Positions 24,190 to 28,036 of a DNA stretch of 32,000 nucleotides are shown here, in pieces; within the stretch, counting starts at the first letter, position 1, and each line of letters opens with the position of its first letter. The stretch spans positions 30,001 through 62,000 of the forward strand of contig NZ_QLIR01000002.1 of the NCBI RefSeq assembly GCF_003428155.1, given 5' to 3'. The DNA is from Fastidiosibacter lacustris (lineage in GTDB: Bacteria; Pseudomonadota; Gammaproteobacteria; Francisellales; Francisellaceae). The notes beneath the pieces were generated by a model. It searched no databases. It saw only the letters and a list, made by a program, of their open reading frames with translations, and was not told the origin of the DNA. The translations under genes and the position numbers were made by a program.

Positions 24190-25446
24190 CTATATACGCT
24201 GGTAAATGCCATCTTTCCTAATTAGCCTTTTGCTATCTACTAACTTTCGGCGTAAACGGGCAAAATCATCGGTGAAACATGCGCAATAGCTGGATATCTC
24301 ATGTTCATTATATGTTTTTTGCGGTTGCAGATAAGAAACAATTAAATCAAGGTATTTTGCTTCTTCTAGCTTGGTGTCGCTGAATTCGTTAAACATTCTG
24401 TCGTTTGCACTTGTGTGTACAAGCGTTTCCCATAACTGCGGATTTTCAAAATAACCGCCATCTTGCAACCTAATCATCTGGGCATCCATGAGTTTTGCTA
24501 ACAGGCGGAGTACTTTTTCTTTGTCTAATTTCACTGTACGTTGAATCTCGCTCAGCTCGCTTATCCCTAGTGCTACCGCACAATAAACAGAACGGATACT
24601 TTGATTTTTTAACAGCATTAGTTTGCGTGTGAGTTCATTTCGTTGTTCAAGTGTTTCGGACAATAGGCTTGTTGCTCGGAACCTTACTGGTGCCAAGCCA
24701 ATAGTACTCATCTCCTCTTGAAATAGTTCCCGTCTGTTTTCTTCCCACTGATGGTGTTTTCTTATTATCCCTAGACCAGTTTGCCTATATTTATGCATTT
24801 CAGGAATGCTCAAAATATCCACGTGCTTTATATTGCTTTTATTGATAAATTCCCATAATGGTGTGCGTATCATGGCCAATTTCTGGTGCTGTGTTGTTTG
24901 TTCTTGTACAGGCACAGTGAAATATGGGTCATGGAAGACCATGAAGCCTCCTGCTGCTAAACGCGACCATAGTTTTCCGATGAATCTTATATCATCAACG
25001 AGGCTTCCCGCATCTAACCAAATAAAGTCAAATAGATTGTCGTCAAAAAACTGGAGGGAAAGATTGTGGAAATCACAGTTTATCGTCTTTACTGACAAGG
25101 CTGCATATTTTGCTGTGTTGAGTGTATTCCATGCTTGAGCAGCGGAGCATCCAGGTGCTGAGAAATTATCAATAGAAATAAATTTCGGTTCATATACAGA
25201 AGTTGCTGCATGAGGGATCAGTAACTCGCTCCTTTCTGCCCATTCTGTATTATGGGCAAGCTCTTTATCAGCAAGATATTCTGCCTTGGCTGCTACTATG
25301 GCATCGGCAATTGCTACGGTTGAATCACCTGCTCCCACTTCAAGGATAGATAGCGGTCTTGCCATTTTGATCATCACAGCGATAATCTCCAAAGCGTTTT
25401 CTGTCCCCATGCCTGGTCTTATTAGTTCCATCGTTTTTTCTCTCAT
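24190..25446 (-). CDS. Class I SAM-dependent methyltransferase fused to a winged-helix domain and a DUF2087-like C-terminus
   Basis: The N-terminus has ILEVGAGDST (motif I), FDFIWLDAG and GGFMVFHD. The middle section (SELSEIQRTVKLDKEKVLRLLAKLMDAQMI) is wHTH-like. The C-terminus (YNEHEISSYCACFTDDFARLRRKLVDSKRLIRKDGIYQR) matches the DUF2087 pattern as I remember it. Confidence 0.7.
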   Translation of the reverse strand: MREKTMELIRPGMGTENALEIIAVMIKMARPLSILEVGAGDSTVAIADAIVAAKAEYLADKELAHNTEWAERSELLIPHAATSVYEPKFISIDNFSAPGCSAAQAWNTLNTAKYAALSVKTINCDFHNLSLQFFDDNLFDFIWLDAGSLVDDIRFIGKLWSRLAAGGFMVFHDPYFTVPVQEQTTQHQKLAMIRTPLWEFINKSNIKHVDILSIPEMHKYRQTGLGIIRKHHQWEENRRELFQEEMSTIGLAPVRFRATSLLSETLEQRNELTRKLMLLKNQSIRSVYCAVALGISELSEIQRTVKLDKEKVLRLLAKLMDAQMIRLQDGGYFENPQLWETLVHTSANDRMFNEFSDTKLEEAKYLDLIVSYLQPQKTYNEHEISSYCACFTDDFARLRRKLVDSKRLIRKDGIYQRI

Positions 25447-25450
25447 TATT

Positions 25451-26119
25451 CTATTTTGCTATCCTTCTTAAAATGCCATGTGCGCAAAGGTTCGCACATA
25501 CCGTATATTGAGCATCTTGGGGGTATACATGAAGGTGGTGGTATTTCATTAGCAAGCCCGTTAGCTCATAATCAATAAAAAAAGCTACGCCAGATAACTT
25601 ATTCCGAATAATGTAGCGATTATTAGCATCAATCAACTCACTGCCGTGTTCCAACTTGTATATGCAATCATTGTTTGGACCGTGCAGATCGTCTATGTCG
25701 TTTATTTCAAAAAGCTTGTAACGAAGCAAACAAATTGCCAGAGATGTATCCTTAAAATCAGATAATGCCTGGTAAGTTCGGAGGGCTTCTATATTGTTTT
25801 CTGACAGTCCATCTAATTCAGCAAAAAAACCAGCTTGGCTATTAATGACAAGAGAAGTTGACTGGACATCCCGTCTTAGAATAGAGCGTGCACCATGATA
25901 GAGTTTAGCATTACGGTGAAGCCTTGGCTTTAAAACTCCATGATATGCTTCAAGCCATGGGTTTTGATCTAATAACTCAGGCTTACGTGCCTTTACTATT
26001 TTGTAAATCGATTTTGGCATGTCGTTGAGAGAATTTATGCAGAACTCAGCAACAAGTGCAGGGTAGGCGCCTGTGTGTTTGCAGAATAATGGTTCTAATT
26101 GAGATAGATTGCAATTCAT
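25451..26119 (-). CDS. Hypothetical protein (222 aa), no recognisable motif
   Basis: Its start overlaps the MFS stop by 4 nt, and its stop lies 4 nt before the methyltransferase start. The product is His-rich and soluble-looking. Confidence 0.6.
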   Translation of the reverse strand: MNCNLSQLEPLFCKHTGAYPALVAEFCINSLNDMPKSIYKIVKARKPELLDQNPWLEAYHGVLKPRLHRNAKLYHGARSILRRDVQSTSLVINSQAGFFAELDGLSENNIEALRTYQALSDFKDTSLAICLLRYKLFEINDIDDLHGPNNDCIYKLEHGSELIDANNRYIIRNKLSGVAFFIDYELTGLLMKYHHLHVYPQDAQYTVCANLCAHGILRRIAK

Positions 26120-27363
26120 TGGTAGGGTAGCTCCTCTTTTTTATATAAGACCAGATTACCTGCAGCACCAATCAGTCCAGCACTGATAGCAATAATGCCA
26201 GCAATAATAAGCAGCAGTCTTGCTGATGCCACAGGAACTTGTCCTGCGATGATAAAGCCAGTTAGCACGGATGCCTGGATAATGAAGATATGAGTTGGCA
26301 TAAGCTGTTGGCGCGCTTCAGCAGGGACAATCTGCATGACAAAGGTAGACATCAGAACGTTTTGAAGCCCATTGGCCATTCCCAGGATAAGAAGAACGAC
26401 ATATAACCAGGGAATGGACTGATAAGCGCCCGATAAGCATACCGAAAAACCGACTGTAGTGGCAGCCATGCAGGCTGCAAACCCCATGCCGTGCTTTTTT
26501 GCCCATGACGTCAACACAATAGGACCTATCATCAAGCCAATACTAATGGCAGAAACGATAAGTCCATAGGTAGCCTGGCTGTAATGAAGATTGATAAGCA
26601 ACAAGTACATAAATGCAACATTGAAAGTTGAGGTGGTACAGATCGTAACGATCAATGGCAGTAAAGTGATTTTCATTCCTGGCAACTGAAAAAAGCGTAA
26701 AACTTGTGGCCAAATAATTTTCTTCCCTGCTTGATTGCCACTATGAGGCTTAATATTGACCGTTTTCGCCAATCTGCCAACTGATAGTAGAGAGCAGGGG
26801 ATGGCAACGATAAAAAGAATACTAACTAATCCCAAACTCCAAGTTGCCCCGAAAAAAGCGGTTAATATGCCCGCTAGAAATGGGGCACTGATATAGCCAG
26901 CATTTCTGATAGATTGCACGAATTTATTAATATCAGCTAGGCGATCATGTTTAAAATAACTAGGGATAACGATAGACAGGACTGACCAGAAAATGCCACT
27001 GACCATTCCCATAAGAAAAGCAGCAGCATAAAACACATAGCTTATAGGGAAATTTGCACTGATAATTAAGGCAAGTATGCTTATGCAGAATATGGCAATC
27101 AATATCTGCATCACTTCAAAATTTCGCAAAAGTAGCATGGCTACTGGTGCGGCACACAGGCTCCCGATTAAAGTCGCAGACATCAAAAAGGAAAGGTTTT
27201 CCATCGACTGTTGATTCACCTGTGCAAAAGAAAAGGTAAATGCTGCGATCTCATCGCCGAAACTTGCAACAAAAACGGTAATAAGACCAGTCAGGAAAAC
27301 TATGCTCAGATTAATTACAGGTTTCAATGGCCCCACTCCTGTATAAAAAATTAATGAGGTCAT
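26116..27363 (-). CDS. MFS transporter
   Basis: The 415-aa product has about 12 TM helices, with Gly/Ala-rich helices and the organisation typical of MFS_1. Confidence 0.85.
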   Translation of the reverse strand: MTSLIFYTGVGPLKPVINLSIVFLTGLITVFVASFGDEIAAFTFSFAQVNQQSMENLSFLMSATLIGSLCAAPVAMLLLRNFEVMQILIAIFCISILALIISANFPISYVFYAAAFLMGMVSGIFWSVLSIVIPSYFKHDRLADINKFVQSIRNAGYISAPFLAGILTAFFGATWSLGLVSILFIVAIPCSLLSVGRLAKTVNIKPHSGNQAGKKIIWPQVLRFFQLPGMKITLLPLIVTICTTSTFNVAFMYLLLINLHYSQATYGLIVSAISIGLMIGPIVLTSWAKKHGMGFAACMAATTVGFSVCLSGAYQSIPWLYVVLLILGMANGLQNVLMSTFVMQIVPAEARQQLMPTHIFIIQASVLTGFIIAGQVPVASARLLLIIAGIIAISAGLIGAAGNLVLYKKEELPYQ

Positions 27364-27617
27364 AAATTTTGCTTTGTTTGTGTTGATTAAACTTCCTCAC
27401 ATTAATGTTCTACAATCGATTTATAAGCTTGAAAGCCTCCAAACGACCAAAGTCATCCCTGTCAGATGGCAATCACCTTGTAACAACTGCGCACTTGTCG
27501 TAATAGTGTTTGGGCTTTCGCAGGAAATTTTCTCGAATTAAGGATAGAAAGTACAGCCCCAGAATTCAGGTGTTTTTCACAAAATCTCCAATTTTTTTGT
27601 TTTCTTACGGATACGAA

Positions 27618-27872
27618 TCAGATTAGCATTTTTATGTCCTCTGTCCTCTGTCCTCTGTCCTCTGTCCTCTGTCCTCTGTTTATATACAAGATCCCGTGAT
27701 AATAGGCAATGCTGACTGCATGAGCGATTGTTGTAGCGTTAAGCTTGCTCTTCAGATTCTTTATGTGCCATTCTATTGTATGTGACGATAGGTAAAGCTT
27801 AGTTGCAATTTCCTTGCAGCCTAAGCCTTCAGCTGTCAGCCGCAGTATTTCAGTTTCCCTTTCAGTTAGCAT
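27618..27872 (-). CDS. LuxR/GerE-type stand-alone HTH transcriptional regulator
   Basis: It reads ETEILRLTAEGLGCKEIATKLYLSSHTIEWHIKNLKSKLNATTIAHAV, a LuxR C-terminal HTH with no receiver or autoinducer domain. I prefer the ATG at 27872 (AAGGAAA Shine-Dalgarno) to the track's GTG at 27902. The C-terminal tail is encoded by the 7-bp microsatellite. Confidence 0.8.
   Translation of the reverse strand: MLTERETEILRLTAEGLGCKEIATKLYLSSHTIEWHIKNLKSKLNATTIAHAVSIAYYHGILYINRGQRTEDRGQRTEDIKMLI
27636..27679. repeat. Heptanucleotide microsatellite (GTCCTCT)x6 plus 2 nt
   Basis: There are six perfect tandem copies at 27636-27677, then GT. On the coding (minus) strand this is (AGAGGAC)6, encoding RGQRTEDRGQRTED. 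Confidence 0.95.
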
Positions 27873-28036
27873 GGCTAATTTCCTTTTTTCACCCTCGCAC
27901 ACATTGTATCAGCTACGCAGTTATGGCACAACTAGGCTACGAGTATAATGTAGAGAATAAATGAACTGTCCTTAGTCTCAAGGTCTATATGAATATGGAT
28001 GTGGAAAATATAGTTGACAATAAATAAAGCTGATAT

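What the first reader, a model, noticed from the sequence alone, without database searches (positions are those of the whole stretch)
24190..27902. Four-gene minus-strand module (LuxR solo, MFS, 222-aa orphan, methyltransferase-regulator fusion) of unknown function, likely horizontally acquired
The MFS, orphan and methyltransferase genes are packed tightly (a 4-nt overlap, then a 4-nt gap). A stand-alone LuxR-type HTH gene lies 254 nt upstream on the same strand. Two 60-nt spot counts inside the module gave about 45-47% GC. Most lines elsewhere gave about 30-38%, but one housekeeping line reached 52%, so this is only suggestive. The module ends 50 bp from a 5'-truncated HAD gene, which implies a rearrangement junction. 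Exporter plus methyltransferase plus an unknown enzyme-sized protein, under a dedicated regulator, could be a small-molecule modification/export system or a resistance module. I cannot match it to any named pathway.
Basis: partly seen in the sequence, partly recalled or inferred. Interest (0 to 1): 0.65.

Follow-up and report, generated by a model that had tools for sequence, protein, structure and literature searches.

The report
Remnant of a KYAQ-peptide cluster
The three tightly packed genes are what is left of a five-gene cluster, found from Bartonella to Streptomyces, that appears to make and export a small modified peptide; this strain has deleted the peptide gene and its oxygenase, while its near-identical twin, a ciliate endosymbiont, still has both.

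Summary
The four ORFs are real and their composition looks foreign: 41.1% GC against 35.9% for the rest of the window, and the four least backbone-like codon usages among 22 genes. MFS, the 222-aa "orphan" (family Y) and the methyltransferase–wHTH–DUF2087 fusion belong to a conserved cluster. In more than 25 loci (Bartonella, Burkholderia, Pandoraea, Photorhabdus, Streptomyces, metagenomes) that cluster reads: short precursor, about 400-aa JmjC-like oxygenase (X), MFS, Y, MT. The precursors carry one to five cassettes of (D/E)E(V/I)xPxxxxxKYAQ, with KYAQ invariant. This is the signature of a ribosomally made, modified peptide. I found no description of this cluster in the literature.

The 99.7%-identical sister genome, 'Ca. 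Nebulobacter yamunensis' (an obligate Euplotes endosymbiont), has the full cluster. The window is inferred to be free-living Fastidiosibacter lacustris. It carries a 1,553-bp deletion at a TTAA microhomology that removes the precursor and 93% of X.

The "LuxR solo" is a bare GerE-type HTH. It is not linked to the cluster in any other taxon. The "orphan" is a fast-evolving member of the Y family.

The window therefore holds a recently disabled remnant of the cluster. The chemistry is inferred, not shown.

The parts
23804..24079 (-). C-terminal remnant (91 aa) of a HAD-family phosphatase gene; marks the left edge of the acquired segment
   Evidence: Pfam Hydrolase/HAD_2 and NCBIfam HxpB match model positions about 120-203 of 222 only. 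Stop codons lie upstream in frame. The same fragment is in the sister genome L001.
24190..25446 (-). Methyltransferase-wHTH-DUF2087 fusion (family 'MT'); probable true start at 25431 (413 aa)
   Evidence: Methyltransf_24 29.2 bits (cut-off 26.3) and DUF2087 38.9 bits (cut-off 22.4). AF2 model has mean pLDDT 84.7. The best Foldseek matches are cation-dependent catechol O-methyltransferases, E about 1e-7. Profile positions 259-325 match ArsR/ZitR-type wHTH regulators, E 1e-4. 68 homologues were found.
25451..26119 (-). Family 'Y' protein (222 aa), the supposed orphan; fast-evolving partner always encoded just upstream of MT
   Evidence: An HMM built from Bartonella, Burkholderiales and Photorhabdus Y proteins (no window sequence) scores it at E 3e-10 over its full length. 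BLASTP to Y of L059 gives 29% identity, E 2e-17; to Y of L060, 26%, E 3e-13. There are only 34 family representatives among 1.84 billion proteins, and none of the 30 members scanned has a Pfam match. Only the C-terminal ~70 aa are modelled with confidence. Their weak fold matches include RRE domains.
26116..27363 (-). MFS_1 transporter (415 aa), the cluster's presumed exporter
   Evidence: Pfam MFS_1 E 5e-32. Weak EntS and H+-antiporter similarity. 33% identical to the MFS in the Bartonella bacilliformis cluster. Homologues sit next to X in more than 40 loci. 100% identical in protein to L001.
27311..27401 (-). Residual 3' end (last ~30 codons plus stop) of the deleted JmjC-like oxygenase gene X
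   Evidence: The ORF at window 27311-27400 hits the 403-aa L001 X protein at E 4.5e-14. The alignment of window to L001 resumes at L001 8027 = window 27405.
27402..27405 (.). Deletion junction (TTAA microhomology): 1,553 bp present in L001 (6478-8030) are missing here
   Evidence: Base-by-base comparison. The two L001 breakpoints lie in an imperfect 24-nt direct repeat (ACATTAACGTAGAAGGAGTTTA / ACATTTTAATGTGAGGAAGTTTA). The missing DNA holds the ribosome-binding site and 56-aa precursor gene (L001 6497-6667) and codons 1-374 of X (L001 6910-8121).
27406..27617 (-). Intact upstream (presumed promoter) region of the deleted precursor gene; holds a 16-nt imperfect palindrome at 27483-27498
   Evidence: 212 nt, with 1 difference from L001. 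Palindrome found. Promoter-like hits are not above chance. No Rfam match.
27618..27902 (-). Stand-alone GerE/LuxR-type HTH gene (77 aa from the ATG at 27851; 94 aa from the GTG). A lineage-specific neighbour, with a 7-nt microsatellite at 27635-27679
   Evidence: GerE E 1.3e-16 and no other domain. No homologue lies next to the cluster in 58 other loci. It has the most atypical codon usage of 22 genes. The 7-nt repeat is x6.4 here and x3.4 in L001.

Best explanation
The region is a recently disabled remnant of a horizontally spread, five-gene cluster of the RiPP type (ribosomally synthesised, post-translationally modified peptide).

The intact cluster is present in the 99.7%-identical genome of 'Ca. 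Nebulobacter yamunensis' and in many other bacteria. It encodes five products:
(1) A 36-110-aa precursor with 1-5 cassettes. Each cassette has an acidic, proline-containing recognition stretch, (D/E)E(V/I)xP, then five variable residues, then the invariant tetrapeptide K-Y-A-Q.
(2) X, a ~400-aa JmjC/cupin-like Fe(II)/2-oxoglutarate oxygenase.
(3) An MFS exporter.
(4) Y, a ~225-aa protein of a rare family that may bind the precursor.
(5) A catechol-O-methyltransferase-like enzyme fused to an ArsR-like winged helix and DUF2087.

Inferred mechanism: Y, and/or the winged-helix part of the fusion, docks the cassettes. X oxidises a side chain in KYAQ; the Lys is the most likely target by analogy with JmjC lysyl and ornithyl hydroxylases. 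The methyltransferase methylates the product. General peptidases release a small KYAQ-derived molecule, and the MFS pump exports it. The wHTH-DUF2087 module tunes precursor expression, as BtmL does for bottromycin.

In this window a 1,553-bp deletion between short imperfect repeats removed the precursor gene and 93% of X. The MFS, Y and MT genes are still intact but have no substrate, so this strain cannot make the product. The GerE-type gene is a lineage-specific neighbour, possibly a local regulator.

Shown: the synteny, the deletion, the precursor conservation and the domain identities. Inferred: the enzyme activities, the order of steps, the nature of the product and the role of Y.
For: Deletion:
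- The window and L001 are 99.2-99.7% identical on both sides, and L001 has 1,553 extra bp.
- The extra DNA encodes a 56-aa ORF with a GAAGGAG ribosome-binding site and two NVKYAQ repeats, plus a 403-aa protein.
- The window keeps the last ~30 codons of X. This is therefore a deletion here, not an insertion in L001.

Conserved cluster:
- X, MFS and MT of L001/window are 36%, 33% and 36% identical to three clustered Bartonella bacilliformis genes.
- The order pre-X-MFS-(extra MT)-Y-MT recurs in more than 25 of the 53 loci from the genome collection and in two metagenome contigs.

Precursor:
- 28 small ORFs carry 48 cassettes. P(-6), K, Y, A and Q are invariant, and position -9 is always acidic.
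- The codons of the invariant residues vary synonymously: AAA 29/AAG 21, TAC 25/TAT 25, all four GCN codons, CAG 39/CAA 11.
- An environmental variant of the 56-aa peptide differs at 5 residues, all outside the NVKYAQ cores.

X:
- H157, D159, K172 and H218 are invariant.
- 9 of 19 members weakly match Cupin_8 and 8 of 19 match JmjC_2.
- The only PDB profile hits are to the FIH asparaginyl hydroxylase. They align the third His, at E about 1.6.

MT.

Y: membership of the family is shown.

Precedents:
- BipG is a JmjC ornithine hydroxylase in a RiPP cluster that also has an MFS gene (PMC12707348).
- JmjC-RRE fusions and bacterial JmjC genes occur in RiPP-like contexts (PMC12710340).
- BtmL (wHTH + DUF2087) raises transcription of the bottromycin precursor gene (PMC7113386).

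Foreign origin.
Against: - No product, enzyme activity or transcript has been observed for any member of this cluster family.
- X stays below Pfam gathering scores, and its PDB match is not significant on its own.
- The Y model is poor (mean pLDDT 49). Its RRE-like matches have E 0.2-1.8, and no sequence profile links it to known RREs.
- The cluster has no protease.
- The methyltransferase lacks the canonical Asp-Asn part of the COMT metal site. The family has H172-(E/D)173 there.
- A more distant Streptomyces sub-group (MT 29-31% identical) has X, MFS and MT with a B12-radical-SAM gene. No KYAQ ORF was found there, so the enzymes are not tied to KYAQ in every lineage.
- That the window is F. 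lacustris is inferred, not read from a record.
- I could not inspect reads to rule out a mis-assembly at the junction.
Confidence: 0.8

Rival explanations
1. One reading: a self-contained four-gene system (LuxR regulator, MFS, unknown enzyme, methyltransferase) that modifies and exports, or resists, a free small molecule and is complete as it stands.
For: The three downstream genes are intact and tightly packed. The MFS resembles drug and siderophore exporters. All four genes share atypical codon usage.
Against: In nearly every other genome, MFS, Y and MT come with a precursor gene and X. The sister genome has both exactly where the window has a deletion scar and a 3' stub of X. LuxR is not linked to the cluster elsewhere.
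Confidence: 0.07
2. The MFS-Y-MT trio is kept by selection after loss of the producer genes. It would act as an immunity, detoxification or sensing module ('cheater' genotype) against the KYAQ product made by neighbouring cells.
For: Several Bartonella loci (L027, L035, L041, L048) have independently lost the precursor and the 5' part of X and kept only the last ~60 codons of X. In L027 the MFS, Y and MT genes appear full-length. Window and L001 differ in the MFS gene only by 4 synonymous changes.
Against: The window's deletion is very recent: the flanks are 99.7% identical and the upstream 212 nt differ by 1 nt. Intactness therefore says nothing about selection. In L035 and L048 the remaining genes are themselves fragmenting, which is what neutral decay predicts. 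In the intact cluster the MFS start overlaps the end of X, so losing X translation probably lowers MFS expression (inference).
Confidence: 0.1
3. The extra 1.55 kb in the sister genome is an insertion (a mobile element or a mis-assembly there), and the window shows the ancestral state.
For: The junction has a TTAA, a sequence some transposons target.
Against: The segment encodes no transposase. It encodes the two genes that occupy the same position in clusters of four phylum- or class-level groups. The window keeps an in-frame 3' stub of X. A second assembly (L002) also carries X upstream of the MFS gene.
Confidence: 0.02
4. The small KYAQ ORF is not a modified-peptide precursor. It would be a regulatory leader peptide or an unmodified secreted peptide, and X, Y and MT would act on something else.
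For: No modification has been shown. Distant Streptomyces relatives of X and MT have no KYAQ ORF.
Against: Cassette number varies from 1 to 5 while a four-residue core and a proline stay invariant and the codons change synonymously. That pattern fits substrate cassettes, not attenuators. The ORF is always directly upstream of the oxygenase. There is no signal peptide (reading of the sequences).
Confidence: 0.08

Closest known systems
Biphenomycin-type RiPP clusters (bip; JmjC hydroxylase BipG, MFS BipB) - PMC12707348, PMC12257519
   Same: A ribosomal precursor is processed by a JmjC-domain Fe(II)/2OG hydroxylase acting on a basic side chain, and the operon includes an MFS transporter. A distant Streptomyces sub-group of the present family also has a B12-radical-SAM gene next to X.
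   Different: This cluster has no MNIO, arginase-like, HExxH or TldD genes. Its core motif (KYAQ) is different. It has a COMT-like methyltransferase-wHTH-DUF2087 fusion and the Y protein, neither of which is in bip. Sequence relatedness of X to BipG was not tested.
BtmL, the wHTH + DUF2087 modulator of the bottromycin cluster - PMC7113386
   Same: The architecture of the C-terminal half (ArsR-like winged helix followed by DUF2087) is the same, and both are encoded inside a RiPP cluster. BtmL specifically raises transcription of the precursor gene.
   Different: Here the module is fused to a full methyltransferase domain. BtmL's mechanism is itself unknown (no DNA binding was shown).
Multi-cassette precursors with an invariant short core, such as fungal ustiloxin UstA (repeated YAIG/YVIG) and cyanobactin PatE
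   Same: Tandem cassettes each pair a recognition stretch with a short, invariant core. Copy number varies between species. The product is expected to be small.
   Different: These are bacterial clusters with unrelated enzymes: JmjC-like rather than DUF3328/tyrosinase or heterocyclase/protease. No flanking protease sites or protease gene are recognisable.
Cation-dependent class I O-methyltransferases (COMT family: SafC 5lhm, TomG 5n5d, Rv0187 6jcl, Niastella COMT 7cvx)
   Same: The Rossmann-type fold matches (Foldseek probability 1.0, TM to target 0.53-0.64). SAM motif I, E-x-G-x-G-x-S, is invariant.
   Different: Sequence identity is 10-16%. The Asp-Asn pair of the metal site is replaced by His-Glu/Asp. 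The enzyme is fused to a DNA- or peptide-binding module. The substrate is presumably peptide-bound.
JmjC hydroxylases FIH and the ribosomal oxygenases YcfD/NO66 (Pfam Cupin_8, JmjC_2)
   Same: X has the H-x-D...H triad and a conserved Lys in the expected order. Weak matches go to exactly these families. NO66 and RRE domains are the top, non-significant, fold matches of the partner protein Y.
   Different: All matches are below family thresholds. X is absent from the window itself.

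Membership tests
RiPP biosynthetic gene cluster | A short precursor-peptide gene next to the modifying enzymes | tested here: not met
   Not met in the window: the gene lies in the deleted 1,553 bp. Met in the sister genome L001 (6497-6667) and in 27 other loci.
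RiPP biosynthetic gene cluster | Precursor with a conserved recognition/leader part and a core under protein-level selection | tested here: met
   Tested in relatives. In 48 cassettes, P(-6) and K-Y-A-Q are invariant, position -9 is acidic, and the codons vary synonymously. The environmental variant P0130 changes only non-core residues.
RiPP biosynthetic gene cluster | A RiPP recognition element (PqqD-like beta3-alpha3 domain) in one of the proteins | tested here: inconclusive
   Residues 150-222 of Y are modelled at pLDDT 67-84 (one block of ten at 52) as beta-strands followed by helices. RRE structures (5v1v, 6jx3_B, 8t19_A) are among the top Foldseek hits, but at E 0.2-1.8. Neither Pfam nor a PDB profile search gives a PqqD match.
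RiPP biosynthetic gene cluster | A post-translationally modified peptide product | not testable with these tools
   Needs mass spectrometry of the co-expressed precursor and enzymes.
JmjC/cupin Fe(II)/2-oxoglutarate oxygenases (protein X; absent from the window) | H-x-D/E...H iron-binding triad and a 2OG-binding basic residue | tested here: met
   H157, D159 and H218 are invariant in 19 sequences, as is K172. The FIH alignment pairs H218 with FIH's third ligand region.
JmjC/cupin Fe(II)/2-oxoglutarate oxygenases (protein X; absent from the window) | Score above the curated Pfam threshold for Cupin_8 or JmjC_2 | tested here: not met
   The best E-values are 2e-4, all below gathering scores. 9 of 19 members match Cupin_8 and 8 of 19 match JmjC_2. 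L001 X itself gives no hit.
Class I SAM-dependent, COMT-like O-methyltransferases (Methyltransf_24) | Pfam score above threshold, SAM motif I, and a Rossmann-like fold matching solved COMTs | tested here: met
   29.2 bits against a cut-off of 26.3. E36-x-G38-x-G40-x-S42 and D93 are invariant. Foldseek E 1.5e-7 to 7cvx, probability 1.0.
Class I SAM-dependent, COMT-like O-methyltransferases (Methyltransf_24) | Asp...Asp-Asn divalent-cation site of cation-dependent OMTs | tested here: inconclusive
   The first Asp is conserved (D145 in W-[IL]-D-A-[GA]). The 'D-N' position reads H172-(E/D)173 in all 18 sequences. The positions were assigned by eye, not by structural superposition.
wHTH-DUF2087 regulators (BtmL-like) | ArsR-like winged helix followed by a DUF2087 domain | tested here: met
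   DUF2087 scores 38.9 bits against a cut-off of 22.4, at residues 365-417. Profile positions 259-325 match the ArsR-family structure 7r22 at E 1e-4 and ZitR at 2e-3. AF2 shows a helix-helix-helix-beta-beta unit at residues 282-334.
wHTH-DUF2087 regulators (BtmL-like) | Control of precursor-gene expression | not testable with these tools
   Needs reporter assays or RT-qPCR. In this window the target gene no longer exists.
LuxR solo (orphan quorum-sensing LuxR) | N-terminal autoinducer-binding domain joined to the GerE/LuxR HTH | tested here: not met
   The protein is only 77-94 aa and has the GerE domain alone. NCBIfam matches cover only the C-terminal HTH of longer regulators. It is a stand-alone GerE-type HTH protein.
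Known anti-phage defence systems (PADLOC) | A match of the component proteins to a defence-system model | tested here: not met
   Only generic weak hits were found: the methylase core to mad2 at E 2.5e-4, and the HTH to CARF/Csa3 HTH regions. There was none for Y, MFS or X.

The most novel reading that the evidence does not exclude
The KYAQ-derived product is a host-interaction or niche factor, and its presence or absence is one of the few functional differences between the obligate Euplotes endosymbiont 'Ca. Nebulobacter yamunensis' (intact cluster) and its 99.4%-ANI free-living, cultivable twin Fastidiosibacter lacustris (precursor and oxygenase deleted). The cluster is also common in other host-associated genera (Bartonella, Burkholderia/Ralstonia, Photorhabdus). 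It would then define a new RiPP class with a role in intracellular or host-associated life.
Probability: 0.1. Interest if true: 0.85.

Novelty: new variant of a known kind. Interest (0 to 1): 0.62.

Why it matters
- It turns an "unknown four-gene module with an orphan" into a defined cluster family that appears to be undescribed. Full-text searches for KYAQ, NVKYAQ, DUF2087 and Bartonella + RiPP found no description. The family has an unusually clear substrate signature: 1-5 cassettes ending in invariant K-Y-A-Q. Two of its protein families, X and Y, have no Pfam model.
- The family occurs in many Bartonella genomes and in Burkholderia, Ralstonia, Pandoraea, Photorhabdus and Streptomyces. A product, if found, would be of wide interest.
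- It supplies a concrete, testable genetic difference between two genomes that were published as "almost indistinguishable" despite opposite lifestyles (PMC9837558). The endosymbiont can presumably make the peptide; the cultivable strain cannot.
- It shows that the cluster decays repeatedly in the same way, by loss of the precursor and the 5' part of X, in unrelated host-associated lineages.

Tried and rejected
- A single-sequence search with the 222-aa protein found only itself. Homology appeared only through neighbourhood-derived profiles.
- Pfam scans of the Y family, a Y profile against PDB sequences (only a spurious Utp9 hit) and hhalign of the N- and C-terminal halves of Y for an internal duplication were all negative.
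- The AF2 model of Y was poor (mean pLDDT 49), so its Foldseek matches count only as a hint.
- The X profile against the PDB gave only FIH at E about 1.6.
No model of X was therefore made.
- A metagenome scan with the neighbouring aminotransferase, meant to find relatives with an "empty site", returned only relatives at 55% identity or less with no shared neighbours. The insertion site could not be reconstructed.
- Promoter and terminator scans were at chance level. Rfam found nothing at E up to 0.1. PADLOC gave only generic hits.
- A search for repeated peptide cassettes in the distant Streptomyces sub-group found none.
- I considered that the 1.55 kb is an insertion in L001 and rejected it, because of the X stub and the synteny.
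- I considered that LuxR belongs to the conserved unit and rejected it.

Full report
**1. Observation**

The minus strand of 24190-27902 carries four ORFs exactly as described:
- a 418-aa protein with Pfam Methyltransf_24 and DUF2087;
- a 222-aa protein with no family;
- a 415-aa MFS_1 transporter;
- a 94-aa ORF with only a GerE/LuxR helix-turn-helix.

The 4-nt overlap and the 254-nt spacer are correct. Three numbers need adjusting.
- The methyltransferase most likely starts at the second ATG (25431), because all homologues begin M-x-L-I-R-P-G-M-G-T-E-N. The gap to the upstream gene is then 19 nt.
- The GC content is 41.1%, against 35.9% for the rest of the window. This is the highest 3.7-kb stretch in the window, but it is not 45-47%.
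- The HAD remnant starts 110 nt from the methyltransferase stop, not 50 bp.

Synonymous codon usage puts LuxR, MFS, MT and the 222-aa gene as the four least backbone-like of 22 genes. The compositional signal is therefore real.

**2. The key comparison**

The methyltransferase fusion has 68 homologues, in Bartonella, Verminephrobacter, Streptomyces and metagenomes. Its closest relative (99% identical) lies on a contig of assembly GCA_024208055.1 (locus L001).

L001 matches the window at 99.2-99.7% on both sides, but it has 1,553 extra base pairs between the LuxR gene and the MFS gene. That DNA encodes two genes:
- a 56-aa ORF preceded by GAAGGAG: MKNQSYASQESILHACKAEEISPSVRNVKYAQCSAEEVTPRISNVKYAQMDEHRLI;
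- a 403-aa protein, called X here.

The window retains the last ~30 codons of X (27311-27401). The breakpoints sit in an imperfect 24-nt direct repeat and share a TTAA. This is a deletion in the window's lineage.

**3. A conserved cluster**

In Bartonella bacilliformis, homologues of X (36% identity), MFS (33%) and MT (36%) are clustered with a 228-aa gene directly upstream of MT and a 53-aa ORF ending in ...VKYAQ....

A scan of one genome per species returned 53 loci. Local HMM searches show the order precursor-X-MFS-Y-MT in Bartonella (many species), Burkholderia, Paraburkholderia, Caballeronia, Pandoraea, Photorhabdus and two Streptomyces. Two metagenome contigs closest to the window's genes also carry the cluster:
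- L059: X 50%, MT 46%, MFS 41% and Y 29% identical;
- L060: same genes in a rearranged order, next to IS630 fragments.

Burkholderiales, two Streptomyces and B. doshiae carry an extra class I methyltransferase between MFS and Y. The Y-family search also picked up Ralstonia and more Burkholderia.

**4. The precursor**

Twenty-eight small ORFs hold 48 cassettes. The proline at -6 and K-Y-A-Q are invariant, position -9 is always Glu or Asp, and N-V usually precedes K. The five residues before K are hypervariable in Bartonella.

Codons for the invariant residues vary freely between synonymous forms. This shows selection on the peptide rather than on the DNA. Cassette number runs from 1 (Bartonella) to 5 (Streptomyces). 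An environmental variant of the 56-aa peptide differs at five positions, all outside the cores.

This is the pattern of a multi-cassette RiPP precursor. The invariant tetrapeptide, the MFS (rather than ABC) exporter and the lack of a dedicated protease suggest a small product. That last step is inference.

**5. The proteins**

*X.* H157-x-D159, K172 and H218 are invariant. About half of the members weakly match Cupin_8 or JmjC_2. The only PDB profile hits are to the asparaginyl hydroxylase FIH, over the third-His region, at E about 1.6. I read X as a JmjC-like Fe(II)/2OG oxygenase. Formal family membership is not established.

*MT.* The protein models well (pLDDT 84.7). Residues 1-235 match cation-dependent catechol O-methyltransferases (Foldseek E 1e-7). 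Residues ~260-335 match ArsR/ZitR winged helices (E 1e-4). Residues 365-417 are DUF2087. The SAM motif is intact, but the Asp-Asn metal pair is replaced by His-Glu/Asp.

*Y (the "orphan").* An HMM made without any window sequence scores it at E 3e-10 end to end, and BLASTP finds the L059 and L060 Y proteins. It is the fastest-evolving gene of the cluster. The family is rare: 34 representatives among 1.84 billion proteins. Only its C-terminal ~70 residues fold confidently in AF2. Lasso-peptide and thiopeptide RRE domains and the NO66 winged helix are among the top fold matches, but not significantly. An RRE-like role is a lead only.

**6. Precedents from the literature**

- BipG is a JmjC ornithine hydroxylase in the biphenomycin RiPP operon, which also has an MFS gene (PMC12707348).
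- RRE domains fused to JmjC domains, and bacterial JmjC genes in RiPP-like contexts, have been noted (PMC12710340).
- BtmL, a wHTH-DUF2087 protein, specifically raises transcription of the bottromycin precursor gene (PMC7113386).
- No paper in the library mentions KYAQ or NVKYAQ, or links DUF2087 or Bartonella to such a cluster.

**7. The LuxR gene**

It is a bare GerE-type HTH of 77-94 aa, not a LuxR solo in the quorum-sensing sense. No homologue lies near the cluster in any other locus. It has the most atypical codon usage in the window, so it may have arrived with the island and may act as a local regulator. That is untested.

Its 3' end holds a perfect 7-nt microsatellite, x6.4 here and x3.4 in L001. 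The repeat adds seven residues in frame.

**8. Organism and context**

The WGS prefix of L001 (JAMBMW) belongs to 'Candidatus Nebulobacter yamunensis', an obligate endosymbiont of the ciliate Euplotes aediculatus. Its free-living, cultivable twin is Fastidiosibacter lacustris SYSU HZH-2 (ANI 99.38%, GC 36.3%) (PMC9837558).

The paper reports a pseudogenised aspartate aminotransferase in the symbiont. L001 has a 1-nt insertion in that gene, and the window's copy (28037-29299) is intact. The window is therefore almost certainly F. lacustris. This is inference.

So the symbiont has the complete cluster and the cultivable strain has lost the precursor and the oxygenase. The remaining genes differ by only 4, 2 and 4 nucleotides (MT, Y, MFS), with no disabling change. 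The deletion is recent. The HAD truncation is shared by both genomes and predates their split.

**9. Recurrent decay**

Bartonella loci L027, L035, L041 and L048 have also lost the precursor and most of X, keeping only the last ~60 codons of X before the MFS gene. Others (L026, L029, L036, L012) show fragmented X or Y. This may be neutral erosion, or retention of MFS-Y-MT for immunity. The data do not decide between the two.

**10. Verdict**

The functional unit was mis-drawn, and in this genome it is broken.

The best-supported reading is a disabled remnant of a previously undescribed RiPP-type cluster with KYAQ cassettes. The chemistry (oxidation by X, O-methylation by MT, export by MFS, control by wHTH-DUF2087) is inferred from domain identities and precedents.

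Noticed in passing
window 27635-27679 (L001 6221-6244): A perfect 7-nt microsatellite (GAGGACA) lies inside the 3' end of the GerE/LuxR gene: 6.4 copies here and 3.4 in the sister genome. The three extra units add RGQRTED in frame. A change that is not a multiple of three units would alter the C-terminal tail, as at a contingency locus.
   Followed up: yes
window 11345-15558: A 4.1-kb low-GC (29-32%) segment is flanked by 81-nt direct repeats (11345-11425 and 15478-15558, 91% identical), which duplicate the 3' end of the dcd gene. It carries a 553-aa radical-SAM protein (13323-14984, minus strand) and a second MFS transporter (12133-13326, minus strand). The sister genome L001 has different DNA here (an adh_short gene). 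It looks like a strain-specific integrated island.
   Followed up: partly
window 28037-29299 versus L001 4600-5863: The type Ic aspartate aminotransferase next to the module is intact in the window but has a 1-nt insertion after nt 543 in L001. This matches the pseudogene reported for 'Ca. Nebulobacter' in PMC9837558.
   Followed up: yes
window 6869-10846: A 1,325-aa single-chain protein combines N6_Mtase, Eco57I-type methylase and a type I specificity (Methylase_S) domain. It is a fused restriction-modification enzyme set among housekeeping genes.
   Followed up: no
L027, L035, L041, L048 (Bartonella); also L012, L026, L029, L036: These loci show independent loss of the precursor and the 5' part of X, leaving only the last ~60 codons of X before the MFS gene, or fragmented X, Y and MFS genes. 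The scar has the same shape as the one in the window.
   Followed up: partly
L043 2151-4514 and the equivalent position in about 12 Streptomyces loci (L037-L055): A more distant sub-group (MT 29-31% identical; some members lack DUF2087) has a B12-binding radical-SAM gene directly upstream of X. No KYAQ ORF or repeated cassette was found.
   Followed up: partly
L061 1272-2150; L006, L007, L010, L015, L030, L031, L008, L032, L017 at about 6400-7320: An additional ~295-aa class I methyltransferase (Methyltransf_23/25/11) is inserted between MFS and Y in Burkholderiales, two Streptomyces and Bartonella doshiae. It is absent from the Fastidiosibacter/Nebulobacter version.
   Followed up: partly
L003 8001-9200: A 399-aa MT-DUF2087 homologue (44% identical) stands alone, with no X, MFS, Y or precursor nearby, in an unidentified low-GC organism whose neighbouring genes encode Sel1-repeat and PhaC proteins.
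   Followed up: no
window 27483-27498: A 16-nt imperfect palindrome (ACAAGTGCGCAGTTGT on the minus strand) lies in the conserved 212-nt region upstream of where the precursor gene used to start. It could be an operator, but one such palindrome is not beyond chance.
   Followed up: no
L060 7971-8749: The metagenome copy of the cluster with rearranged gene order (pre-Y-MT-X-MFS) ends next to IS630-family transposase fragments. This is consistent with mobility of the cluster.
   Followed up: no
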